Positions 41-26,462 of a DNA stretch of 41,448 nucleotides are shown piece after piece (the stretch's first letter is position 1; each line of letters begins with the position of its first letter). Below the pieces are notes generated by a model. That model was not told the origin of the DNA. It was given only the letters and a program-made list of their open reading frames with translations, and searched no databases. A program made the translations under genes and the position numbers. Source of the stretch: a virus; the UHGV virus genome UHGV-0135480; one strand, 5' to 3'.

Positions 41-116
41 AGTCCAAGTAGCTTATATGGTTAAAGCGCGTGTCTGAAAAACATGAGAAGAGGGTTCAAA
101 TCCCACTGGACTACCA
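41..116 (+). tRNA. tRNA, probable tRNA-Phe (anticodon GAA)
   Basis: Acceptor agtccag-like pairing 41-47 with 106-112, D-arm with GG, anticodon stem cgtgt(69-73)/acatg(81-85) with loop cTGAAaa (U33, GAA at 76-78), T-loop GGTTCAAATCC, encoded CCA 114-116. One acceptor and one T-stem mismatch lower confidence. Confidence 0.55.
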
Positions 117-1486: not shown

Positions 1487-3088
1487 ATGGATTTAAATGC
1501 TGTTAAGCAGAAGCGAGTGGAAGATGTTAGGAAAGTCCTAGCTGGAGAGTTGGGGCTTTCTGATGAAGTAAAAGAAATTATCAAATCATTCGGTAAAGAC
1601 CCCTCTAAATTCCTTCCAACTCAAATTCTGACTTTATTAAGATACACACCAGACCAAGTTAGACTTATCTTCAAATTGATGACTGATAAGAATTATGTAG
1701 CCCCTCAGCCGGGTTCTCAAGAGGTCTTTTTAAATACTAATGCTGACTTGGTTCTCTATGGTGGTGCTGCTGGTGCTGGTAAGACTGCTGCATTGTTAAT
1801 GGACTCTTTAAGATTTATCGAAGACCCTAACTATAATGCTGTATATTTCCGTCGAAATACAACACAGCTACAAGGTGGTTTATGGCCTGCTGCAAAGAAA
1901 CTATTTGGTAAGTTTGGTGGGATTCCTCACGAGCAGAAAATGACTATCACATTCCCTTCTGGGGCGACTATCAAGTTTACCTATCTAGAACTTGAAAAGC
2001 ACGCTGAAGGCCATCAGGGTATTGAATACTCAGCTATTTACTTTGACGAAGGTACACACTTCTCTGCTTCACAGATTTCATACCTACAAACCCGTTTACG
2101 TTCTGGTGCTGAAGGTGATTCATACATGAAGATTTCTATGAACCCAGACAGAGACCACTTTATTTACGATTGGGTAGAGCCATTCTTAGATGAAGAAGGT
2201 TATCCAGACCCTGAAAAGTGTGGTCGTATTCGTTGGTATGTAATGAACGATGGTGTGATGGTTTCTGATTGGGAGAGAGACAAGATTCTTGAAATGTTCC
2301 CTCTTGAGATTCCTCAAACATACACCTTTATCTCTGGTACGATTGATGATAACCCAATCCTTGACTTCTTAGAGCCTAAGTACCGTGGTAAGTTGGAAAA
2401 CAACACCCCTGTAAACGTTGCAAGACTTCGTTTCGGTAACTGGAAGGCTCGTGCAGAAGGTTCAAACTATTGGCAAAGACAATGGTGTGAGATTGTTGAT
2501 TCACTCCCAGAAGATGTATTCGATGTTAGAGCATGGGACTTAGCAGCAACTTTACCATCTGAGATTAACCCTAATCCAGACTGGACAGCAGGTGTTAAGA
2601 TGGGTAAATCTAAAAAAGACGGTTGCTATTATATCATTGATGTAGTAAGATTTAGAGATAGACCCTCTGGAGTCGAAACACAAATTAATTTGACTGCTGA
2701 AAGTGACGGTAAGCGAACTGGTATTTTTATCCCTCAAGACCCAGGCGCTGCTGGTAAATCCTACGCAACATCCCTCATCAGGAAACTTGCCGAGAAAGGT
2801 TATCGAGCAAGAGCCAAACCAACAAATAAAGATAAAGTTACCCGCTTTGCGGGATTTTCTGCTGCTTCTGAAGCTGGACTTGTAAAAGTCTTGAGAGGTA
2901 GTTGGAATGAAGCTTACTTTCAAGAACTTGAAGGCTTTTGTGGTGACGGCAAAACTAAAGATGACCAAGTGGATGCTACCAGTGATGCTTTCAACAGTCT
3001 TAACGAAGTTAAATTATTCAAGCCACCATCAATGGGTGCTCACACAGATTTAGTGAGAGGAAACCCATATGAGGGGCTTAGACGTTGA
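1487..3088 (+). CDS. terL: terminase large subunit
   Basis: Walker A-like LYGGAAGAGKT near the N-terminus, size about 533 aa, position ahead of portal. ORF track starts at TTG 1472; ATG 1487 has GGAGG 6 nt upstream. Confidence 0.85.
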   Translation: MDLNAVKQKRVEDVRKVLAGELGLSDEVKEIIKSFGKDPSKFLPTQILTLLRYTPDQVRLIFKLMTDKNYVAPQPGSQEVFLNTNADLVLYGGAAGAGKTAALLMDSLRFIEDPNYNAVYFRRNTTQLQGGLWPAAKKLFGKFGGIPHEQKMTITFPSGATIKFTYLELEKHAEGHQGIEYSAIYFDEGTHFSASQISYLQTRLRSGAEGDSYMKISMNPDRDHFIYDWVEPFLDEEGYPDPEKCGRIRWYVMNDGVMVSDWERDKILEMFPLEIPQTYTFISGTIDDNPILDFLEPKYRGKLENNTPVNVARLRFGNWKARAEGSNYWQRQWCEIVDSLPEDVFDVRAWDLAATLPSEINPNPDWTAGVKMGKSKKDGCYYIIDVVRFRDRPSGVETQINLTAESDGKRTGIFIPQDPGAAGKSYATSLIRKLAEKGYRARAKPTNKDKVTRFAGFSAASEAGLVKVLRGSWNEAYFQELEGFCGDGKTKDDQVDATSDAFNSLNEVKLFKPPSMGAHTDLVRGNPYEGLRR

Positions 3089-3104
3089 TAGCTAGGTGAG
3101 AAGA

Positions 3105-4571
3105 ATGGCAGATATTACAGAAACACAAGAAAGCTTACCACCATTTAGAATGGGTGAAGTAGGTTCTTTGGGTCTGAAGGTTAAGAATGGAAGAATCTAT
3201 GAAGAACCTCGTCAGGCACTAAGGTTCCCTGAAAGTATTAAAACTTTCCAATTAATGATGCGTGACCCTGCTGTAGCAGCATCTGTAAATATTATTAAGA
3301 TGTTTGTCAGAAAAGTCAACTGGAGATTCGTACCTCCAAAGGGAAAAGAGCAAGACCCTAAAATGCTTGAAAGAGCAGACTTCTTTAATTCTTTAATGGA
3401 TGACATGGAGCATGATTGGGCAGATTTTATTAACTCTGTAATGTCATTCTGCACTTATGGGTTCTGTGTTAACGAAAAGGTTTATAAGAAACGTCAGGGT
3501 AAAAAAGGAAAGTATCAATCGAAATTTGATGACGGTTTAATTGGATGGGCTAAATTACCAATCAGAAACCAATCAACACTTGATAAGTGGTATTTTGACG
3601 AAGACTTTAGAAAAGTTACTGGTGTTAGACAGAATCTGAGAAATGTTTCACATATTGCTGGAGCAATTAATCTTGGAGAAAGACCATTAACAAGAAAACT
3701 TCCACGAGCTAAATTCATGCTGTTTAAGTATGACGATGAATATGGAAATCCAGAAGGTCGTTCACCATTACTTAATGCTTATGTACCGTGGAAGTATAAA
3801 GTACAGATTGAAGAGTATGAAGCAGTTGGTGTTTCAAGAGACTTGGTAGGTATGCCAAAGATTGGTTTACCACCAGATTATCTGGATGAAAATGCAGAAC
3901 CTGAAAAGAAAGCTTTCGTACAATACTGCAAGACTGTTGTTAATGATATGATTGCTAACGACAGAGCAGGTTTAATCTGGCCTAGATATATTGACCCAGA
4001 CACTAAAGAGGATATTTTTGAGTTCTCATTAGTTTCTAGACAGGGTGCTAAAGCATACGATACAGGTTCTATTATTGACAGATACTCTAAGCAGATTATG
4101 ATGGCATTTATGTCAGATGTTCTTGCTATGGGTCAGTCAAAATACGGTTCATTCTCTCTTGCAGATTCTAAGACAAGCTTATTAGCGATGTCAGTAGATA
4201 TTCTGCTGAAGCAAATTAAGAACGTAATTAACCGTGATTTAGTTGCACAGACTTATGCTCTTAATATGTGGGACGATGAAGAACATGTACAAATTACATA
4301 TGATGATATCGAAACCCCAGACCTTGAAGCAATTGGTTCTTATATTCAGAAGACTGTTGCAGTAGGTGCTTTGGAAGTTGACAAAGAGCTATCTAACAAG
4401 CTTAGAGAGCATATTGGTCTTCCTCCTGCTGATGAGTCTCAGCCAGTATCTGAAAAGCTTTCTCCAAATAGCCAAAGCCGCTCAGGAGATGGTTATAAGA
4501 CCGCTGGAGAAGGTACTGCAAAGACACCTTCAGCGAAAGACCCAAGCACAGCAAATAAGGCAAATAAATAA
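3105..4571 (+). CDS. portal protein
   Basis: About 490 aa ORF directly after terL and before the prohead protease. ORF-track start 3096 is GTG; in-frame ATG at 3105. Assignment by synteny and size. Confidence 0.6.
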   Translation: MADITETQESLPPFRMGEVGSLGLKVKNGRIYEEPRQALRFPESIKTFQLMMRDPAVAASVNIIKMFVRKVNWRFVPPKGKEQDPKMLERADFFNSLMDDMEHDWADFINSVMSFCTYGFCVNEKVYKKRQGKKGKYQSKFDDGLIGWAKLPIRNQSTLDKWYFDEDFRKVTGVRQNLRNVSHIAGAINLGERPLTRKLPRAKFMLFKYDDEYGNPEGRSPLLNAYVPWKYKVQIEEYEAVGVSRDLVGMPKIGLPPDYLDENAEPEKKAFVQYCKTVVNDMIANDRAGLIWPRYIDPDTKEDIFEFSLVSRQGAKAYDTGSIIDRYSKQIMMAFMSDVLAMGQSKYGSFSLADSKTSLLAMSVDILLKQIKNVINRDLVAQTYALNMWDDEEHVQITYDDIETPDLEAIGSYIQKTVAVGALEVDKELSNKLREHIGLPPADESQPVSEKLSPNSQSRSGDGYKTAGEGTAKTPSAKDPSTANKANK

Positions 4572-12740: not shown

Positions 12741-20756
<8,016 letters not shown>

Positions 20757-20758
20757 TA

Positions 20759-21931
20759 ATGGCAGTAGGTGAAATTCAAATTAGTGCCTTGCCTCAAGCA
20801 GCTTTACCAATTGACCTTAGTGATATCTTCCATCTTAAGCAGGGTATTGAGGATAAGAGGTGTACTCTTGAGCAATTACTTGCTCCACACGCAAGCCTAA
20901 GAAATAACCCTCATGGTGTTACTAAAACACAAATTGGTTTAGATAATGTTATTAATGCTCTTCAGTTAGTCGCTGCAAATAACTTATCAGATATTGTTAA
21001 TGTAGCTGAGGCAAGAGCAAATCTACAGATTATGTCTTCAGAAGAGGTTAATAACCTTGTCCAGCAACATATCAAGGACAAGAGTAATCCACACAATACA
21101 ACTAAGGCACAGGTTGGTTTAAGTAATGTTCAGAACTGGACAACATCTAATCTGTATAACGAAGATGCAGATAAGTATGCTACAGCAAGAGCAGTAAATA
21201 ACTTGTACAAGGCTGTTCAGGCTTCTTATCCAGTAGGTACTATTCATCTTTCTATGAACTCTGCAAACCCTTCTACATACTTAATTTGTGGAGGTACTTG
21301 GGAGTTAGTTTCAAAAGGCAGGGCATTGGTTGGCTATGACTCTGATACAAGACCAGCAGGTTCTGTATTTGGTGCTTCAACTGTCACTTTGTCAGTTAAT
21401 AACATGCCTCAACACTCCCACTCTGTGTCACTTAGTGGTGGTGGTCACACTCATAATGCAACTGTGTCAATTTCAGCTTTTGATTATGGGACTAAGACTA
21501 CAAACTCTTTTGACTATGGGACAAAAGCTACTAACACAACTGGTAACCATACACACAGTGTGTCAGGTAACACAAGCACCAATGGTACTCACAACCATGA
21601 TGTGTATCCTAGAGAAAATGATGGTACTGGTAATGCTGTAGCTGACTCTGATGGTGGTGGTGCAAGAAGGACATCAAGGACTTCTAGTGACGGTGCGCAC
21701 TCACACAGCTTTAACGTCACATCTGGTGCATCAGGTGACCACAGCCACACGGTTGGTATTGGTGCTCACAGCCATACAGTTGGTATTGGTTCACATACGC
21801 ATAGTGGCACTGTAACAGTTTCTTCTTCTGAACATACACATAGTGGCAATACAAATAGTGTTGGTGGAGGTCAGGCAGTTAATATTGAACAGCCATCCTT
21901 CGTACTGTATGTATGGCAGAGAACAGCTTAA
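20759..21931 (+). CDS. tail fibre protein with C-terminal His-x-His repeat domain
   Basis: 390 aa; C-terminal 170 aa is Gly/Ser/Thr-rich with at least 9 HxH triplets (HSHSVS, HTHSVSG, AHSHTVGIG) and two FDYGTK repeats; ends VLYVWQRTA, paralogous to the end of the next gene. Confidence 0.6.
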   Translation: MAVGEIQISALPQAALPIDLSDIFHLKQGIEDKRCTLEQLLAPHASLRNNPHGVTKTQIGLDNVINALQLVAANNLSDIVNVAEARANLQIMSSEEVNNLVQQHIKDKSNPHNTTKAQVGLSNVQNWTTSNLYNEDADKYATARAVNNLYKAVQASYPVGTIHLSMNSANPSTYLICGGTWELVSKGRALVGYDSDTRPAGSVFGASTVTLSVNNMPQHSHSVSLSGGGHTHNATVSISAFDYGTKTTNSFDYGTKATNTTGNHTHSVSGNTSTNGTHNHDVYPRENDGTGNAVADSDGGGARRTSRTSSDGAHSHSFNVTSGASGDHSHTVGIGAHSHTVGIGSHTHSGTVTVSSSEHTHSGNTNSVGGGQAVNIEQPSFVLYVWQRTA

Positions 21932-21941
21932 TTTCTTTACA

Positions 21942-21961
21942 GGGGCTTTATAGCCCCTTTT
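21942..21961 (+). terminator. candidate rho-independent terminator between the two fibre genes
   Basis: Stem ggggct/agcccc with loop ttat, then TTTT. Confidence 0.45.
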
Positions 21962-21977
21962 AAGAGGAAAATTTATA

Positions 21978-24332
21978 ATGGCAGATTACAAATTGAGTGA
22001 ACTAAACTCAATCGACACAATCCGTTCAGATGACCTTCTTCATGTCAGAGTTAAAAAGAGACCTGAAATGCTGGGTGATGAAGACCGTCGAATGACCTAT
22101 CAAGACTTCTTAGCATCTTTTAAACTTGAAAGATTTGTTCAGATTGCTGGTAGCACTATGACGGGTGACTTAGGAATTGTTAAGCTACTTTACGGTGGCA
22201 AGGCTGTATTCGACCCTACAGGCTCTTCTGAGATTACTGTTGGGGATGTTTTAAAGACTTTTAAAATCAACGCAAACGGCCTTAAACTAACTATTGCAGA
22301 CGCTTCAAGGTCGGCAACTGTTTATCATACTTTGAATAAGCCAAGCCCTAATGAACTTGGGATGAGAACTAATGAAGAGAATGACGCAAGGTATGCAAGA
22401 CTAGCCGTGAATAATACCTTTAGAGGTACTCAAGCTATCCTCTCTGACAATGAAGCGCTCATTATTAAAAATATCACTCAAGGTGCTCCACTCTATCTTC
22501 GTGGTCAAGATGCAGATGGTACTAACAGATGGTATCTAGGTAATGATAATAGGGGTACAAATAATCTTGTATTGAAGAATGTAAAGTCTGACGTTTCAAT
22601 TGCTATTTTAGAGAATTTGGTGACAGTCAACAGAACTCTTCAAATTGCTGGCCAAGTTCAGCCTTCAAGTTTTGCTAACTTAGATGCTAGGTATTTTACC
22701 CAGACAGCAGCTAATCAGAGATTTGCGCAGTTAGCTGGTAATAACACTTTTACTGGTACTAACACTTTCTCTAATTTTGTTGCTAAGAAGAATGCTGAAG
22801 CCATCACTCTGCAAAATGTGGACACTGCTCCCTCTTTATATATCCGAGCAAGAAAGTCAGATGGGAATTATAAGTGGTACATTGGTAATGACGGTGATGA
22901 GAACATTTTAAAAATCTATAACTATCTAACAAAAACACAAGTCTCACTAGGTAACACTATTGCCATGAGCAAAACAGTTCAAATTGATGGTCAAGTACAA
23001 CCTTCTGATTGGACTAACATTGATTCTAGATATATTCCGGCAGCCACTTTGAGTAATCTCCCTAAACTTAATGTGTCTAATACTTTCACAAATGTGCAAA
23101 CTATTGTATCTAACAACGAGGGTTTGGTATTAAGGAACTTGACACAGGGGCAGCCACTATATATCCGTGGTGTTGATACTGAGAATGTTTCTAGATGGTG
23201 GTTAGGTGTAGGTGGTCCAAACTCTAATGTGGTAACACTTAACAACAACTATTCTGACACTAAAATCTCACTTGGTGGCTCATCAGTAATGACTAATAAG
23301 AGCTTAGCTATTACTGGTCAAGTACAACCTTCTGACTTCTCTAACTTAGATGCTAGATACTATACCCAAGCTGCCGCAAACGCAAGATATATGCTTGCAA
23401 GCATCACTGGTTCGGCTTCTGAAGCAGATGGTGGTGATGGTGTTGCATGGGATGCAAAAACAGGTCTTTATAAGGTCACTAACACCACTGGACAGTCTTC
23501 TTCACTTGTATATCACATGTTTTTAGGGACTAGTTCTACACCATCTGCACAATTAAAGTTTTCGTTTAAAAATGGTGGGATGTGGTATAGAGCATCAAGA
23601 GATGCCTATGGCTTCGAAGTTAATTGGTCTAAAGTTTACACGGAAGCACAAAAACCAACCCCTTCAGAGATTGGTGCATACACTAAAACTGAAACTGACC
23701 AGAAGATTGCACAGGCAGTAAGTGACTCTACAGACCTTAACAAAATCTATCCAGTTGGTATTGTAACATGGTTTAACAGTAATGTTAACCCTAATACAGC
23801 ACTGCCTGGTCTAACTTGGACGTACCTTAACAATGGTGTTGGTAGAACTATCAGAATTGCAGCAGCAAACGGTTCAGATGTTGCTACAACTGGTGGTTCA
23901 GACTCTGTGACATTATCAGTTGGTAACTTACCATCACACACTCATAGTTTCTCTGCTACCACTTCATCTTTTGATTATGGTACAAAGAACACTAACAACA
24001 CTGGTGCTCACACCCACTCTGTAAGTGGTACAGCTAACTCTGGTGGTGGACACGCACATAGAATCTCACAAGGTGATAACGCTAACGTACCATCTGGTCG
24101 TGTTGCTTCATCAAACTCTGCTCAAACGCACGTTGGTTGGACAGAAAGTGATGGTGTTCACACCCACTCTGTAAGTGGTTCTGCTGCATCTGCTGGGGGG
24201 CATGCTCACTCAGTAGGTATTGGTGCTCATAGCCACACAGTTAGTGGTAACACTGGTGGTACAGGCTCTGGTTCAGCATTCAGTGTAACCAACCAGTTCT
24301 ACAAATTAATGGCTTGGGTAAGAACTGCTTAA
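21978..24332 (+). CDS. long tail fibre protein with three about 110-aa tandem repeats and C-terminal His-x-His repeat domain
   Basis: 784 aa; three internal repeats each containing QG.PLY.RG, W.LG and GQVQPS...DARY; C-terminus has HTHSFS, AHTHSVSG, GGHAHSVGIGAHSHTVSG and ends KLMAWVRTA. Confidence 0.65.
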   Translation: MADYKLSELNSIDTIRSDDLLHVRVKKRPEMLGDEDRRMTYQDFLASFKLERFVQIAGSTMTGDLGIVKLLYGGKAVFDPTGSSEITVGDVLKTFKINANGLKLTIADASRSATVYHTLNKPSPNELGMRTNEENDARYARLAVNNTFRGTQAILSDNEALIIKNITQGAPLYLRGQDADGTNRWYLGNDNRGTNNLVLKNVKSDVSIAILENLVTVNRTLQIAGQVQPSSFANLDARYFTQTAANQRFAQLAGNNTFTGTNTFSNFVAKKNAEAITLQNVDTAPSLYIRARKSDGNYKWYIGNDGDENILKIYNYLTKTQVSLGNTIAMSKTVQIDGQVQPSDWTNIDSRYIPAATLSNLPKLNVSNTFTNVQTIVSNNEGLVLRNLTQGQPLYIRGVDTENVSRWWLGVGGPNSNVVTLNNNYSDTKISLGGSSVMTNKSLAITGQVQPSDFSNLDARYYTQAAANARYMLASITGSASEADGGDGVAWDAKTGLYKVTNTTGQSSSLVYHMFLGTSSTPSAQLKFSFKNGGMWYRASRDAYGFEVNWSKVYTEAQKPTPSEIGAYTKTETDQKIAQAVSDSTDLNKIYPVGIVTWFNSNVNPNTALPGLTWTYLNNGVGRTIRIAAANGSDVATTGGSDSVTLSVGNLPSHTHSFSATTSSFDYGTKNTNNTGAHTHSVSGTANSGGGHAHRISQGDNANVPSGRVASSNSAQTHVGWTESDGVHTHSVSGSAASAGGHAHSVGIGAHSHTVSGNTGGTGSGSAFSVTNQFYKLMAWVRTA

Positions 24333-24411: not shown

Positions 24412-24609
24412 ATGCCTACAATCCTAGCAATTCTTCTAAAAAATCTAGGTAGCTTCTTCTGGAAACTCATTTTATCCCTTCTAAGTGAATACATGATTGA
24501 GAAAGTGTTCTTTAAGCTTGCAAGATACCTTGCGAGTAAAACAGACACACCTATTGATGATGAGTTCGTAGATAACTTAGAAAAAGCTTTTAAGGGGGAG
24601 AATAAATGA
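24412..24609 (+). CDS. small hydrophobic protein, possible holin-like membrane protein
   Basis: 65 aa with an N-terminal hydrophobic segment (ILAILLKNLGSFFWKLILSLL) and charged C-terminus; follows the fibre genes. No endolysin is visible in the window. Confidence 0.3.
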   Translation: MPTILAILLKNLGSFFWKLILSLLSEYMIEKVFFKLARYLASKTDTPIDDEFVDNLEKAFKGENK

Positions 24610-24977
24610 AGTGGCTAGAGGAAGCTTTTAAAAATAATATTGGTGCAATTGTAGTTGGTATTTTTAGTGTTATTGGGATGTATACCACGATGCAAGTTTC
24701 AAGTGGTAAACAAGAAGTGTCTGTCACAACAAAGTTACAGCAGCTAGATAATTATTCCAAAAGTAACTATTCAGCTATTCGTGATTTACAGTCTGACATG
24801 AGACTGATTCAGCTAGGGATGGAGAACCAGAAAGTTCAGTTAGAGAATGTTAAGGGTGAAAACGCAAAACTTACCAAAACTCTTGATAAATTCTCTGACA
24901 GTGTGAATAATCTGGCTCAATCAGTATCAGCCCTCCAAGCTATTACTGAGAAGAACACAAAGAATACTGAAAAATAA
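24606..24977 (+). CDS. membrane-anchored coiled-coil protein, possible i-spanin-like or fibre-associated protein
   Basis: 123 aa, N-terminal TM-like segment (IGAIVVGIFSVIGMYTTMQV) followed by a helical Q/L/K-rich region; ATGA overlap with the upstream ORF. Confidence 0.3.
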   Translation: MKWLEEAFKNNIGAIVVGIFSVIGMYTTMQVSSGKQEVSVTTKLQQLDNYSKSNYSAIRDLQSDMRLIQLGMENQKVQLENVKGENAKLTKTLDKFSDSVNNLAQSVSALQAITEKNTKNTEK

Positions 24978-24985
24978 AATTTTAA

Positions 24986-25011
24986 GGCTCCTTTTGACGG
25001 GAGCCTTTTTT
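24986..25011. terminator. bidirectional intrinsic terminator between convergent late (+) and early (-) blocks
   Basis: Stem ggctcc(24986-24991)/ggagcc(25000-25005), then TTTTTT on the + strand; the A/T run upstream gives a U-tract for the - strand. Confidence 0.6.
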
Positions 25012-25015
25012 GTTT

Positions 25016-25915
25016 TTACTTACCTACTGACAAAGGTGCTTCAATCTTTCCTGCATGTTTGTAGTTGTTGATGCCACCAATAAAGTCACTTGCAGTAAGA
25101 TGTTTTAAGTCACTTAAGGTGTTAAGTTGTACACCAATCTCAAAAGTAGGTGCATGGAACTCTTCATTGTTCATCAGTTCATAAACCTGCTTCATATGGT
25201 TCTGGTAAATCTGAGTGTCTCCAAAGACACCTATCAAGTATCGTGGAGTGTATCCAGTCATCTTACAAAGAACTTCTAAGATGAAGCCATAAGACGCAAT
25301 ATTAAATGGAAGTCCTAAAAAGGTGTCTACAGAACGTTGATACCATTGTAAGTCAACTTCACCTTCGTTAGTAATATAAATCTGAAACAAAACATGGCAA
25401 GGTGCTAAAGCCATCGAGTTTGCTGCAATATCTGCTGCATTCCAAGCATTAACAAGCATGTAGCGGTCTGTGATATCACCCTTCATCTTTGCTACTAAGG
25501 TCTCTAACTGGTCTACAACACAACCATTATGACCCTCAAAGTTCCTCCACTGAACCCCATAGATTCTCCCACCTGCATCTTCTAACCAATCTTGTTCAGA
25601 AGAATAATTAGAACTTAACCAGCGTTTAAAATCATCTGACCAGATAGTCCAGCGTTCTCCGTCATTTTCACCCCATGTGCGGTAACGGAGTTCGCCAAGC
25701 TTATTCTCGCCATTCAGGAACCATAAAGCTTCCCCAATGACTTGCCGTGTAAACACCTGTTTAGATGTTAAGAGCGGGAAACCAGTTCGCATATCAAAAC
25801 GAAACTGAGGTGGAGCAAATGCAGAGGTAACATCTCCAGTTCGTGTAGTACGCAGTTCACCAACGGATAAAACATGGTTCAGGATATTTTTGTAACTTGA
25901 ATCTGCTTGTGACAT
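25016..25915 (-). CDS. thyA: thymidylate synthase
   Basis: 299 aa with ThyA-type N-terminal region (ELRTTRTGDVTSAFAPPQFRFDM) and overall ThyA-like length and composition; ATG start. Confidence 0.85.
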   Translation of the reverse strand: MSQADSSYKNILNHVLSVGELRTTRTGDVTSAFAPPQFRFDMRTGFPLLTSKQVFTRQVIGEALWFLNGENKLGELRYRTWGENDGERWTIWSDDFKRWLSSNYSSEQDWLEDAGGRIYGVQWRNFEGHNGCVVDQLETLVAKMKGDITDRYMLVNAWNAADIAANSMALAPCHVLFQIYITNEGEVDLQWYQRSVDTFLGLPFNIASYGFILEVLCKMTGYTPRYLIGVFGDTQIYQNHMKQVYELMNNEEFHAPTFEIGVQLNTLSDLKHLTASDFIGGINNYKHAGKIEAPLSVGK

Positions 25916-25916
25916 A

Positions 25917-26462
25917 TCAAAAGTGTCCTTTTACTTGTGGAACATAAATTTCAAAAGTTGCTTTACCATCCTCTGATGGTTTTGACTGTACCTTTGTAAA
26001 TACACGGTTATCATACAGCTTCTCAAAGAAGTTTTCAAAAGGTAAATGCACAGTGGCCTCTTGAGTAACTTTATGGAAGACTGTATGGAACACCACACCA
26101 GCATACGGTAAAGCATTGACAAGGACACCTGCACCACCAATTACAAAGACATCTTCATCAATAGAGCTATCAAGATACTTCAAAAATGCTCCAAATGACT
26201 CTTTACTGGCTTTAGCATACATTACATCATCTTTGCCAAAGTCTATGCCTAAGTATGGTACAGAATTTGTTAAGATTAGGTTTGCACGTTCTGGTAGAGG
26301 TTTACTACCCAGAGTCTTAAAAGTCTCATTACCCATGACTACTAAGTTGTTTTTAGTGAGTCTCTTAAACTCTTGCATATCCTGTTTATGTCGAGGCCAC
26401 GGCATACCAGTTGGAGTACCAAACTCTCCATTTTCACCACTTGCAAAGATTAATTTAATCAT
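25917..26462 (-). CDS. folA: dihydrofolate reductase
   Basis: 181 aa starting MIKLIFA..G.PW, resembling DHFR N-termini such as T4 frd; directly upstream of thyA. Confidence 0.8.
   Translation of the reverse strand: MIKLIFASGENGEFGTPTGMPWPRHKQDMQEFKRLTKNNLVVMGNETFKTLGSKPLPERANLILTNSVPYLGIDFGKDDVMYAKASKESFGAFLKYLDSSIDEDVFVIGGAGVLVNALPYAGVVFHTVFHKVTQEATVHLPFENFFEKLYDNRVFTKVQSKPSEDGKATFEIYVPQVKGHF

What the first reader, a model, noticed from the sequence alone, without database searches (positions are those of the whole stretch)
20759..24332. Two adjacent tail-fibre genes share a His-x-His-rich C-terminal tip domain
Both fibre proteins end in a Gly/Ser/Thr-rich segment packed with HxH triplets, FDYGTK repeats, and nearly identical blocks (GIGAHSHTV, HTHSVSG) with a conserved W.RTA terminus. 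HxH arrays coordinate metal ions in the receptor-binding needle of T4 long tail fibre gp37. The shared tip on two fibres of different length suggests duplication with divergence of the shaft, or a recombination hot spot for host-range switching.
Basis: partly seen in the sequence, partly recalled or inferred. Interest (0 to 1): 0.5.

Follow-up and report, generated by a model that had tools for sequence, protein, structure and literature searches.

The report
Felix-O1-type fibres with gp37-like tips
The two neighbouring genes encode the short and long tail fibres of a Felix O1-like E. coli phage, and both end in the same histidine-rich, probably metal-stapled "needle" that phage T4 uses to touch its host; this is real but was already described for this phage group.

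Summary
ORF1 (20759-21931, 390 aa) and ORF2 (21978-24332, 784 aa) share a C-terminal module with 9 and 6 HxH motifs, FDYGTK units, GIGAHSHTV and HTHSVSG blocks, and a W-x-R-T-A end. The similarity is far beyond composition (BLASTP 1e-27; shuffle z = 24).

The window is a Felixounavirus (96.7% nt identity to ULIM8). The upstream ORFs are orthologues of Bas63 gp24 and gp25 (PDB 9NDY), so the two ORFs correspond to Bas63 gp26 (short fibre) and gp27 (long fibre).

ORF1 residues 146-362 align to the T4 gp37 tip crystal structure (2XGF) at E = 3e-29, and ORF2 residues 648-763 at 3e-13. All seven T4 iron-site HxH motifs have counterparts in ORF1 and six in ORF2.

The two tips are as distant from each other (43%) as from T4 (39-41%), with only short DNA similarity. 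This is an old shared module, not a recent duplication.

Relatives show a recurrent swap of about 200 nt covering the head domain, bounded by the conserved motif blocks. That supports the host-range recombination idea.

All of this is published (Felix O1 genome 2010, VpaE1 2015, Bas63 cryo-EM 2025). Verdict: confirmed, already known, low interest.

The parts
20454..20756 (+). Long-tail-fibre platform protein (100 aa), orthologue of Bas63 gp25. It is the anchor for the long fibre and lies directly upstream of the two fibre genes.
   Evidence: phmmer vs PDB: 9ndy_S 'LTF platform protein (gp025)', E = 3e-64, full length 1-100. phrog_4141. The preceding ORF 19591-20454 matches Bas63 wedge protein 1 gp024, E = 1e-181.
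20759..21931 (+). Short tail fibre gene (390 aa). By synteny it corresponds to Bas63 gp26 / Felix O1 gp76 / VpaE1 gp74. The N-terminal half is baseplate attachment plus shaft, with two NPHxxTKxQ[IV]G repeats at residues 50 and 110. The C-terminal 237 aa form the gp37-type tip.
   Evidence: ORF list. phrog_2097 tail fiber, E = 4e-138. 100% identical tip in phage VpaE1_ev035. Synteny with the annotated fibre genes of VpaE1, wV8 and AYO145A.
21218..21409 (+). Short fibre collar domain (aa ~154-217). It corresponds to T4 gp37 D10 residues 811-881.
21410..21598 (+). Short fibre needle, descending strand (aa 218-280). HxH at 219, 230, 264, 278; two FDYGTK units; HTHSVSG.
   Evidence: Motif positions. 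HxH 219/264/278 align with T4 H883/H915/H929 motifs. HxH 230 lies in a 13-aa insertion relative to T4.
21599..21691 (+). Short fibre head (distal tip) domain (aa ~281-311). It is the turn of the hairpin and the predicted receptor contact.
   Evidence: Aligns with the T4 gp37 932-965 tip subdomain, whose residues are critical for LPS/OmpC binding. It is the least conserved part of the protein: 0.13-0.33 identity over 74 homologues. Lowest pLDDT in the model.
21692..21847 (+). Short fibre needle, ascending strand (aa 312-363). HxH at 314, 328, 337, 346, 359; GIGAHSHTV and GIGSHTH.
   Evidence: Motif positions. HxH 314/328/337/346 align with T4 966/980/989/998. HxH 359 is extra.
21848..21931 (+). 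Short fibre C-terminal return to the collar (aa 364-390, ends ...FVLYVWQRTA) plus stop codon.
   Evidence: Aligns with T4 gp37 1010-1026 (...FNYIVRLA), which is part of the collar domain D10. The W[QKR]R[TV][AS] end is conserved in all 74 homologues.
21547..21746 (+). Exchangeable short-fibre head cassette (aa 263-330), as seen in relatives.
   Evidence: Identity is 52-53% nt to ASO1B and LF82P9 here, against 91-97% in the flanks. Both phages show the same borders. In the protein view the borders fall on GNHTHSVSG and HTVGIGAHSH.
21943..21966 (+). Terminator-like hairpin between the two fibre genes (GGGGCT-ttat-AGCCCC followed by TTTTAAG).
   Evidence: Sequence read directly. A rho-independent terminator is annotated at the homologous place in wV8 and AYO145A. 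It was not listed by the simple scan, because only 4 T follow the stem.
21978..24332 (+). Long tail fibre gene (784 aa). By synteny it corresponds to Bas63 gp27 / Felix O1 gp77 / VpaE1 gp75. It has a conserved N-terminus, three gp37_trimer repeat units, a Mu-S-like domain, and then the gp37-type tip.
   Evidence: ORF list. phrog_4277, E = 0 over the full length. Pfam gp37_trimer x3, gp37_C, Phage_fiber and Gp10_C. A 100% identical protein, P0121, was seen on 29 contigs.
23415..23708 (+). Long fibre internal domain (aa 480-577) related to phage Mu tail fibre S. It is the second variable zone of the fibre.
   Evidence: PDB 8ju3 (Mu tail fibre S), E = 4e-20. Pfam gp37_C, E = 7e-19. Conservation is 0.45-0.6 over 120 homologues. 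Identity is 46-47% nt in VpaE1 and LF82P9.
23739..23933 (+). Long fibre collar domain (aa ~588-652).
23934..24059 (+). Long fibre needle, descending strand (aa 653-694). HxH at 654, 678, 692; one FDYGTK; HTHSVSG.
   Evidence: Motif positions. The HxH motifs align with T4 883/915/929. One D(L/Y)GTK unit is missing relative to T4.
24060..24152 (+). Long fibre head (distal tip) domain (aa ~695-725), the predicted receptor contact.
   Evidence: Aligns with the T4 tip subdomain. Conservation minimum of the tip, 0.51-0.66. pLDDT 40-49.
24153..24242 (+). Long fibre needle, ascending strand (aa 726-755). HxH at 728, 742, 751; HTHSVSG; GIGAHSHTV.
   Evidence: Motif positions. The HxH motifs align with T4 966/980/989. 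There is no equivalent of T4 H998.
24243..24332 (+). Long fibre C-terminal return (aa 756-784, ...FYKLMAWVRTA) plus stop codon.
   Evidence: 0.99-1.00 conserved; all 120 homologues end in WVRTA.
23984..24236 (+). Exchangeable long-fibre head cassette (aa ~669/682 to 746/753), as seen in relatives.
   Evidence: Identity is 54-56% nt to VpaE1, ASO1B and LF82P9, against 93-98% in the flanks. TH10 keeps this cassette at 96-99% while its shaft differs (47-55%). VpaE1 and AYO145A carry a T4-gp37-type head here.

Best explanation
What the genes are:
- They encode the short (390 aa) and long (784 aa) receptor-binding tail fibres of a Felixounavirus (Felix O1-like myophage of E. coli).
- Each fibre is a homotrimer attached to the baseplate by its N-terminus. 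This is inferred from the Bas63 cryo-EM work.

Tip architecture (T4 gp37-type):
- A collar domain comes first.
- The chain then runs down a long needle, forms a small head at the far end, and runs back up. The three chains therefore build a six-stranded beta needle, and the C-terminus (W-x-R-T-A) packs back into the collar.
- Each HxH motif, contributed by three chains, is predicted to form an octahedral His6 site for a metal ion (iron in T4). That gives 9 predicted sites in the short fibre and 6 in the long fibre, stapling the needle together.
- The head is the receptor-contacting, specificity-determining part. The likely receptor is LPS core sugars, as for relatives.

Evolution:
- The conserved motif-coding DNA on both sides of the head (FDYGTK...GxHTHSVSG upstream, GIGAHSHTV downstream) serves as homology arms.
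- Recombination between phages, including other genera, replaces the ~70-aa head cassette there. This changes host range without disturbing the scaffold.

Shown versus inferred:
- Shown here: homology, motif correspondence, the conservation profile and the mosaic borders.
- Inferred: trimer state, metal binding, which receptor is bound, and the recombination mechanism.
For: Identity of the phage and genes:
- 96.7% nt identity to Felixounavirus genomes.
- The upstream ORFs match Bas63 gp24 and gp25 in PDB 9NDY.
- The fibre genes are syntenic in VpaE1, wV8 and AYO145A.

Homology to the gp37 tip:
- ORF1 146-362 vs 2XGF at E = 3e-29, covering collar, needle and head. ORF2 648-763 vs 2XGF at E = 3e-13.
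- Pfam Gp10_C and Phage_fiber hits.
- In the three-way alignment, T4 HxH 883/915/929/966/980/989/998 match ORF1 219/264/278/314/328/337/346 and ORF2 654/678/692/728/742/751.
- T4's seven HxH bind seven Fe, and the tip subdomain 929-958 is functionally critical (PMC6957217).

Hairpin topology:
- AF2 monomer models show a confident collar. They then show two long strand segments separated by a low-confidence loop exactly where the head aligns.

Head as the variable determinant:
- Conservation minima are at ORF1 281-320 (0.13-0.33) and ORF2 681-740 (0.51-0.66). These lie within otherwise conserved tips.

Cassette exchange:
- ASO1B is 96-100% identical across most of both genes but 45-64% in both heads.
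- VpaE1 and AYO145A share the short-fibre head with the window but carry a different long-fibre head.
- TH10 shares both heads with the window but has a different shaft.
- The borders recur at the same motif blocks.
- The VpaE1 long-fibre tip is 72% identical to T4's, against 43% for this window.

Published statements of the same architecture:
- PMC12609058, PMC4690856 and PMC3185647.
Against: - No trimer could be modelled. The monomer models are mediocre (pLDDT 71 and 65, pTM 0.33-0.35).
- Metal binding and the identity of the metal are untested.
- The fibres themselves are not in the PDB.
- The Sf14 paper reads the short fibre's gp37/C24-like domain as lying mid-fibre rather than at the tip. 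The placement of the receptor site is therefore not unanimous.
- T4 gp37 needs gp38 and gp57A to fold. No gp38 homologue is present in this window.
- Which fibre binds which receptor is unknown.
Confidence: 0.9

Rival explanations
1. The shared tip results from a recent duplication, or ongoing gene conversion, between the two adjacent genes within this genome.
For: The genes are adjacent, on the same strand, and share blocks such as GIGAHSHTV and HTHSVSG. There is a 39-nt stretch at 85% identity over the GIGAHSH coding block.
Against: - The tips are only 43% identical to each other, no closer than each is to T4 gp37 (41% and 39%).
- blastn finds only three short patches (39, 60 and 39 nt at 73-85%) and no long identical tract.
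- The short-fibre and long-fibre heads assort independently among relatives. VpaE1 and AYO145A have the same short-fibre head as the window but a different long-fibre head.
Confidence: 0.04
2. The resemblance is a by-product of low-complexity Gly/Ser/Thr/His composition and does not reflect a common fold.
For: The segments are compositionally biased (S+T+G+H is about 55%).
Against: - Composition-adjusted BLASTP gives E = 1e-27.
- Shuffle z-scores are 18-24. The non-His-rich collar alone gives z = 8.3.
- Both tips hit the same curated Pfam domain, Gp10_C, and the same crystal structure, 2XGF.
- The HxH count is not reached in 0 and 3 of 20000 shuffles.
Confidence: 0.01
3. The short fibre works like the T4 short tail fibre gp12: a collar plus a single Zn site with a knitted head that binds LPS irreversibly. 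On this reading it is not a gp37-type long needle.
For: - It is the shorter of two fibres, and it has a collar of the gp10/gp11/gp12 fold.
- Relatives use LPS as receptor.
Against: - phmmer against the PDB finds gp37 (3e-29) and gp10, but no gp12 chain at E <= 1.
- Nine HxH spread over ~150 residues on two antiparallel segments match the gp37 pattern site by site.
- The Bas63 paper assigns a gp37-like tip to the short fibre.
Confidence: 0.03
4. The tip fold is as described, but the head is not the main specificity determinant. Host range would instead be set by the long fibre's variable shaft repeats or its Mu-S-like domain (aa 138-340, 405-563), or by lateral needle surfaces.
For: - The long-fibre shaft segments are as mosaic as the head (47-55% nt in VpaE1 and TH10).
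- The Bas63 authors also noted unexpected variability in the beta-helix repeats.
- The Sf14 authors suggest receptor contacts proximal to the tip.
Against: - In T4 the receptor-critical residues map to the tip subdomain that aligns with the window's heads.
- In the short fibre the head is by far the least conserved segment, and the shaft is conserved.
- ASO1B differs from the window almost only in the two heads.
Confidence: 0.15

Closest known systems
Bas63 (Escherichia phage JohannRWettstein) short tail fibre gp26 and long tail fibre gp27, cryo-EM 2025 (PMC12609058; baseplate PDB 9NDY)
   Same: - Same genus and same gene order: wedge 1, LTF platform, short fibre, long fibre. The window's upstream ORFs match 9NDY chains at E = 1e-181 and 3e-64.
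- The paper describes both fibres as ending in a T4-gp37-like collar, an HxH needle and a head. [quoted passage not shown]
   Different: - The window's short fibre has 9 HxH, the commonest count in the family (53 of 74 homologues). Bas63's short fibre is reported to have 7.
- The long fibre has 6 HxH in both. The window has GGHAH at 690-694, while Bas63 is reported to have HHxH at 692-695.
- The head sequences differ.
- I did not align the Bas63 fibre proteins directly.
T4 long tail fibre distal subunit gp37, receptor-binding tip (PDB 2XGF)
   Same: - Collar, a six-stranded needle with HxH metal sites, a head at the hairpin turn, and a C-terminus returning to the collar.
- 39-41% identity over ~200-220 residues, with site-by-site HxH correspondence.
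- Shared D(L/Y)GTK, GxHxH and GIGAH blocks.
   Different: - The window proteins are much shorter single-protein fibres (390 and 784 aa, against 1026 aa for gp37, which also works with gp34-36).
- HxH counts are 9 and 6 rather than 7.
- The collars score as Pfam Gp10_C, whereas T4's scores as Pfam Collar.
- The head sequences are unrelated.
- No gp38 homologue is present in the window.
Felix O1 gp76/gp77 and VpaE1 gp74/gp75 (PMC3185647, PMC4690856)
   Same: - They are orthologous gene pairs.
- Both papers report C-terminal homology of both proteins to T4 gp37. For VpaE1 gp74 the region is aa 146-362, identical to the range found here.
   Different: The window's long-fibre head differs from VpaE1's, which is a near-copy of T4's head (tip 72% vs 43% identity to T4). 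The short-fibre head is the same type as in VpaE1.
Pfam PF03335 'Phage tail fibre repeat' proteins (lambda Stf, P2-like gpH-type fibres and prophage fibres)
   Same: They share the GxHxH repeat unit. tblastn with the ORF1 tip finds lambda and lambdoid side tail fibres at 47-51% identity over query residues 96/103-204.
   Different: Those fibres share only the repeat-bearing segment, not the whole collar-to-C-terminus module. They generally come with a separate tail fibre assembly protein (from general knowledge, not tested here).
T4 short tail fibre gp12 and baseplate proteins gp10 and gp11 (collar fold)
   Different: gp10 and gp11 have no HxH needle. gp12 has a single metal site (general knowledge; reference cited).

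Membership tests
T4 gp37-type receptor-binding tip (collar + HxH needle + head; PDB 2XGF) | Significant sequence homology to the solved tip across collar, needle and head | tested here: met
   ORF1 146-362 vs 2xgf_A 18-228 at E = 3.2e-29. ORF2 648-763 vs 2xgf_A 101-218 at E = 3.3e-13.
T4 gp37-type receptor-binding tip (collar + HxH needle + head; PDB 2XGF) | HxH motifs arranged in two sets, descending and ascending, that align with the seven Fe-coordinating motifs of T4 | tested here: met
   The three-way alignment gives 7 of 7 T4 sites matched in ORF1 (plus 2 extra) and 6 of 7 in ORF2. The HxH excess over shuffles is 0/20000 and 3/20000.
T4 gp37-type receptor-binding tip (collar + HxH needle + head; PDB 2XGF) | Collar domain of the gp10/gp11/gp12 fold preceding the needle | tested here: met
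T4 gp37-type receptor-binding tip (collar + HxH needle + head; PDB 2XGF) | Chain folds back at a distal head so that the needle is a six-stranded trimeric beta structure | tested here: inconclusive
T4 gp37-type receptor-binding tip (collar + HxH needle + head; PDB 2XGF) | Metal ions (Fe in T4) bound by His6 sites on the three-fold axis | not testable with these tools
   This needs metal analysis or a trimer structure. It is inferred only from conservation of the HxH motifs: nearly invariant H columns in alignments A1 and A2.
T4 gp37-type receptor-binding tip (collar + HxH needle + head; PDB 2XGF) | Dependence on the gp38 and gp57A chaperones for folding | tested here: not met
   tblastn of T4 gp38 against the window gives no hit at E <= 10. 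The two ORFs downstream of the long fibre are small membrane/coiled-coil proteins with no chaperone family match. gp57A was not searched, and only 41 kb of an ~88 kb genome is visible. This is an accessory requirement in T4, not a feature of the fold.
Felixounavirus short/long tail fibre pair (Bas63 gp26/gp27) | Position directly downstream of wedge 1 and the LTF platform in a Felixounavirus structural module | tested here: met
   The window ORFs 19591-20454 and 20454-20756 match 9NDY gp024 and gp025. Identity to Felixounavirus genomes is 96.7% nt.
Felixounavirus short/long tail fibre pair (Bas63 gp26/gp27) | Full-length membership of the family profiles for the two fibres | tested here: met
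   phrog_2097 at E = 4e-138 for ORF1 and phrog_4277 at E = 0 (1-784 of 780) for ORF2. There are 74 and 120 full-length homologues.
Felixounavirus short/long tail fibre pair (Bas63 gp26/gp27) | Presence in the virion as baseplate-attached trimers | not testable with these tools
   Taken from the literature. Bas63 cryo-EM shows both fibres. The long fibre was detected by MS in Felix O1 and VpaE1, and the short fibre at low coverage in Felix O1.

The most novel reading that the evidence does not exclude
These phages may fold two gp37-type, metal-stapled needles without any dedicated gp38/Tfa-type chaperone.
- The window has no gp38 homologue, and no fibre-assembly gene flanks the fibres.
- The Sf14 authors likewise found no Mu-type fibre chaperones in that genome.

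The needle may also be a length-tunable scaffold.
- Here it has 9 HxH layers in the short fibre and 6 in the long fibre. The range is 6-11 across short-fibre homologues.
- Its head cassettes assort independently between the two fibres and even cross genus boundaries, as shown by the T4-type head in the VpaE1 and AYO145A long fibres.

If this is true, Felixounavirus tips would be a simpler chassis than T4 gp37 for engineering receptor specificity.
Probability: 0.3. Interest if true: 0.35.

Novelty: already known. Interest (0 to 1): 0.12.

Why it matters
The tip heads of these two fibres most likely decide which E. coli, Shigella or Salmonella strains a Felix O1-like phage can attach to.

The exact cassette borders are window 21547-21746 in the short fibre and about 23984-24236 in the long fibre. 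Both are flanked by conserved motif blocks, which gives ready-made junctions for swapping heads when designing diagnostic or therapeutic phages.

Scientifically this adds nothing new in kind. The gp37-like tips on both fibres, their HxH motifs and their variability are all already published for this genus.

Tried and rejected
Structure prediction and fold search:
- One chain taken from an intertwined trimer is not a fair test. I treat the structural route as inconclusive and rely on sequence homology.

Paired gain and loss of HxH units:
- The three-way alignment with T4 fits the idea. ORF1 is longer on both strands and ORF2 shorter on both.
- Splitting 74 short-fibre homologues at the head gave heterogeneous combinations such as (4,2), (3,6) and (5,4).
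- The alignment in the head region is unreliable, so I make no family-wide claim.

Recent duplication or gene conversion between the two genes:
- Rejected on DNA evidence.

Chaperone search:
- tblastn of T4 gp38 against the window found nothing.
- PHROGs and Pfam scans of the two downstream ORFs gave only unknown-function families and weak coiled-coil or Rz-like hits.
- gp57A and the rest of the genome were not searched.

Technical failures:
- The original T4 tip paper (PMC2996694) is not held in the library. Domain boundaries were taken from PMC6957217 instead.
- A first MAFFT run timed out and was repeated with faster settings.
- A literature search for 'His box' recombination found no open paper using that term.
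- The older T-even work on recombination at conserved gp37/gp38 motifs is cited from memory only.

Full report
**What is there.**
The finding's coordinates hold two complete, same-strand ORFs: 20759-21931 (390 aa) and 21978-24332 (784 aa). A 46-nt spacer between them contains a terminator-like hairpin.

- There are nine HxH in ORF1 (219, 230, 264, 278 | 314, 328, 337, 346, 359) and six in ORF2 (654, 678, 692 | 728, 742, 751).
- FDYGTK occurs twice in ORF1 and once in ORF2.
- GIGAHSHTV occurs in both.
- HTHSVSG occurs once in ORF1 and twice in ORF2.
- The ends are WQRTA and WVRTA.

Essentially every His of the C-terminal segments is part of an HxH. Shuffles of the same segments reach the observed count in 0 and 3 of 20000 trials.

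The similarity between the two tails is not a composition effect:
- Composition-adjusted BLASTP gives E = 1e-27 over ORF1 157-341 and ORF2 591-755.
- Smith-Waterman scores exceed shuffles by z = 24 for the whole tips and z = 18 for the His-rich part.
- The preceding collar, which is not His-rich, gives z = 8.

It begins at a YPVG-containing collar domain, at ORF1 ~154 and ORF2 ~588.

**Where it comes from.**
The region is 96.7% identical in DNA to Escherichia phages vB_EcoM_ULIM8 and ULIM3, and 96.4-96.5% to VpaE1_ev035 and ev108. In all, 240 phage records match, nearly all Felixounavirus from Escherichia, Salmonella, Citrobacter or Shigella.

The two ORFs immediately upstream are orthologues of Bas63 wedge protein 1 (gp024, E = 1e-181) and the LTF platform protein (gp025, E = 3e-64). 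Both are in the cryo-EM baseplate model 9NDY. By synteny ORF1 is therefore the short tail fibre (Bas63 gp26, Felix O1 gp76, VpaE1 gp74). ORF2 is the long tail fibre (Bas63 gp27, Felix O1 gp77, VpaE1 gp75).

Downstream lie two small membrane/coiled-coil ORFs. After a bidirectional terminator come thymidylate synthase and dihydrofolate reductase on the opposite strand.

**What the shared domain is.**
A phmmer search of the PDB with ORF1 hits the T4 gp37 receptor-binding tip (2XGF) at E = 3.2e-29 over residues 146-362. That range covers the collar, both needle strands and the head. T4 gp10 is hit at ~1e-5 over the collar only. ORF2 hits 2XGF at 3.3e-13 over residues 648-763. Pfam places a Gp10_C domain at the start of each tip and a 'Phage tail fibre repeat' in ORF2.

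I aligned both tips with T4 gp37 785-1026:
- T4's seven HxH are 883, 915, 929 on the way down and 966, 980, 989, 998 on the way back. They coordinate the seven iron ions of the needle (PMC6957217; PMC12609058).
- They align with ORF1 219, 264, 278 | 314, 328, 337, 346.
- They align with ORF2 654, 678, 692 | 728, 742, 751.
- ORF1 has one extra HxH on each strand: 230, inside a 13-aa insertion with an extra FDYGTK-type unit, and 359.
- ORF2 lacks the last T4 site and one D(L/Y)GTK unit.
- The C-terminal ...VWQRTA and ...AWVRTA align with T4's ...IVRLA. In T4 that segment belongs to the collar domain (residues 1010-1026).

From this alignment the approximate domain map is:

| Domain | ORF1 (short fibre) | ORF2 (long fibre) |
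|---|---|---|
| Collar | 154-217 | 588-652 |
| Descending needle | 218-280 | 653-694 |
| Head | 281-311 | 695-725 |
| Ascending needle | 312-363 | 726-755 |
| Return to collar | 364-390 | 756-784 |

**Structure prediction.**
Only monomers could be modelled. The ORF1 tip gave pLDDT 71 and the ORF2 tip 65, with pTM ~0.33-0.35. In both models the collar is confident, two long strand segments follow, and the loop between them has the lowest confidence exactly where the head aligns.

- Foldseek finds only the collar.

This is coherent but weak. I regard the needle topology as supported by homology, not by these models.

**Duplication or recombination?**
The two tips are 43% identical to each other, and 41% and 39% identical to T4. 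At DNA level the genes share only three patches of 39-60 nt at 73-85%. This is an old, widely distributed module. It is not a recent duplication or gene conversion inside this genome.

Comparison with relatives shows clear cassette exchange. Over 74 short-fibre and 120 long-fibre homologues, conservation is lowest in the heads: ORF1 281-300 at 0.13 and 301-320 at 0.33, and ORF2 681-740 at 0.51-0.66. The flanking motif blocks and the C-termini are conserved.

In 100-nt bins against eight genomes:
- ASO1B is 96-100% identical across most of both genes. It falls to 45-64% at 21600-21700 and 24000-24200, which are the two heads.
- VpaE1 and AYO145A keep the window's short-fibre head but carry a different long-fibre head.
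- TH10 keeps both heads but has a different long-fibre shaft.

Finer mapping puts the recurrent borders at window 21547-21746 (short fibre, aa 263-330) and ~23984/24021-24214/24236 (long fibre, aa ~669/682-746/753). These fall on GNHTHSVSG / HTVGIGAHSH and on FDYGTK..GAHTHS / VGIGAHSH.

The long-fibre head of VpaE1 and AYO145A is a near-copy of T4 gp37's own head. Their tip is 72% identical to T4, against 43% for this window. The cassette therefore moves between genera.

The long fibre has two further mosaic zones. One is in the shaft (aa 138-340). The other is at aa 405-563, which includes a domain related to phage Mu tail fibre S (8ju3, E = 4e-20).

**Mechanism proposed.**
- Both proteins are trimeric fibres attached to the baseplate by their N-termini (from Bas63 cryo-EM).
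- In each tip, three chains run down and back to form a six-stranded needle. Each HxH triplet from the three chains forms a His6 metal site, giving 9 predicted sites in the short fibre and 6 in the long.
- The head at the turn contacts the receptor. For relatives the receptor is the LPS core.
- Specificity changes by homologous recombination within the conserved motif-coding DNA that brackets the head.
- The homology, the motif map, the conservation profile and the mosaic borders are shown here.
- Trimer state, metal binding, receptor identity and the recombination mechanism are inferred.

**Is it new?**
No.
- The Felix O1 genome paper (2010) reported that gp76 and gp77 both resemble T4 gp37 at their C-termini.
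- The VpaE1 paper (2015) gave the same residue range, gp74 aa 146-362, and noted variable C-termini.
- The Bas63 cryo-EM paper (2025) states that both fibres end in a gp37-like collar, an HxH needle and a head. It counts the di-histidine motifs and maps high variability to the receptor-binding tips.

This analysis adds only detail: the site-by-site HxH correspondence, the 9-site short-fibre needle as the commonest family state (53 of 74), the exact cassette borders, and the independent assortment of the two heads.

One point remains open. T4 gp37 needs gp38 and gp57A to fold, but this window has no gp38 homologue. The Sf14 authors likewise found no Mu-type fibre chaperones in that ounavirus. 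Only half the genome is visible here, so this is a lead and not a result.

**Verdict.**
The feature is an already described property of Felixounavirus tail fibres. Interest is low (0.12).

Noticed in passing
window 21943-21966: A GC-rich hairpin (GGGGCT ttat AGCCCC) followed by TTTTAAG sits between the short-fibre stop and the long-fibre start. wV8 and AYO145A annotate a rho-independent terminator at the same place. It could set the relative expression of the two fibres.
   Followed up: partly
window 24984-25007: A bidirectional terminator-like hairpin (9-bp stem with T-runs on both strands) lies where the + strand late block meets the - strand block. The - strand block starts with thymidylate synthase (25016-25915, Pfam E = 1e-73) and dihydrofolate reductase (25917-26462, E = 2e-21).
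   Followed up: partly
window 23415-23708 (long fibre aa 480-577): This internal domain of the long fibre is homologous to phage Mu tail fibre protein S (PDB 8ju3, E = 4e-20; Pfam gp37_C). It lies in the second most variable zone of the fibre. It could be a second, lateral receptor-binding module.
   Followed up: partly
L002 (VpaE1) 1879-4233 and L005 (AYO145A) 1879-4242: The long-fibre head cassette of VpaE1 and AYO145A is almost identical to the T4 gp37 head ([20 protein letters not shown]...NAAGNHSHTFSFGTS). Their tip is 72% identical to T4, against 43% for this window. This indicates exchange between Tequatrovirus and Felixounavirus.
   Followed up: partly
window 24412-24609 and 24606-24977: Two small overlapping ORFs follow the long fibre. 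The first (65 aa, phrog_402) looks hydrophobic, probably membrane-spanning, from reading its sequence. The second (123 aa, phrog_4038) has an N-terminal hydrophobic segment (also read from the sequence) and weak coiled-coil-type Pfam hits, with a weak Rz-like spanin hit at E = 0.009; its orthologue is annotated 'holin' in phage VSe11. The layout recalls T4, where holin t follows g37-g38. Neither ORF resembles a fibre chaperone.
   Followed up: partly
window 20906-20938 and 21086-21118 (short fibre aa 50-60 and 110-120): The short fibre's N-terminal half carries two copies of an NPHxxTKxQ[IV]G motif 60 residues apart. They probably mark repeated shaft units of the 'triple helix and turn' kind described for Bas63.
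   Followed up: no
window 22398-23400 (long fibre aa ~141-474): Pfam finds three copies of the gp37_trimer unit (~95 aa each). These shaft repeats are themselves mosaic between relatives: 47-55% nt in VpaE1 and TH10, against 96-100% in ASO1B.
   Followed up: partly
window 41-116, 870-962, 967-1042: Three tRNA genes (Phe-GAA, Ser-GCT, Cys-GCA) lie at the start of the window. They are probably part of the tRNA set known from Felix O1-like phages, which has 22 tRNAs in Felix O1.
   Followed up: no
whole window: Cumulative GC skew rises to ~25 kb, falls to ~36 kb and rises again. This matches the switches between + strand and - strand gene blocks at ~25.0 kb and ~36.1 kb.
   Followed up: no
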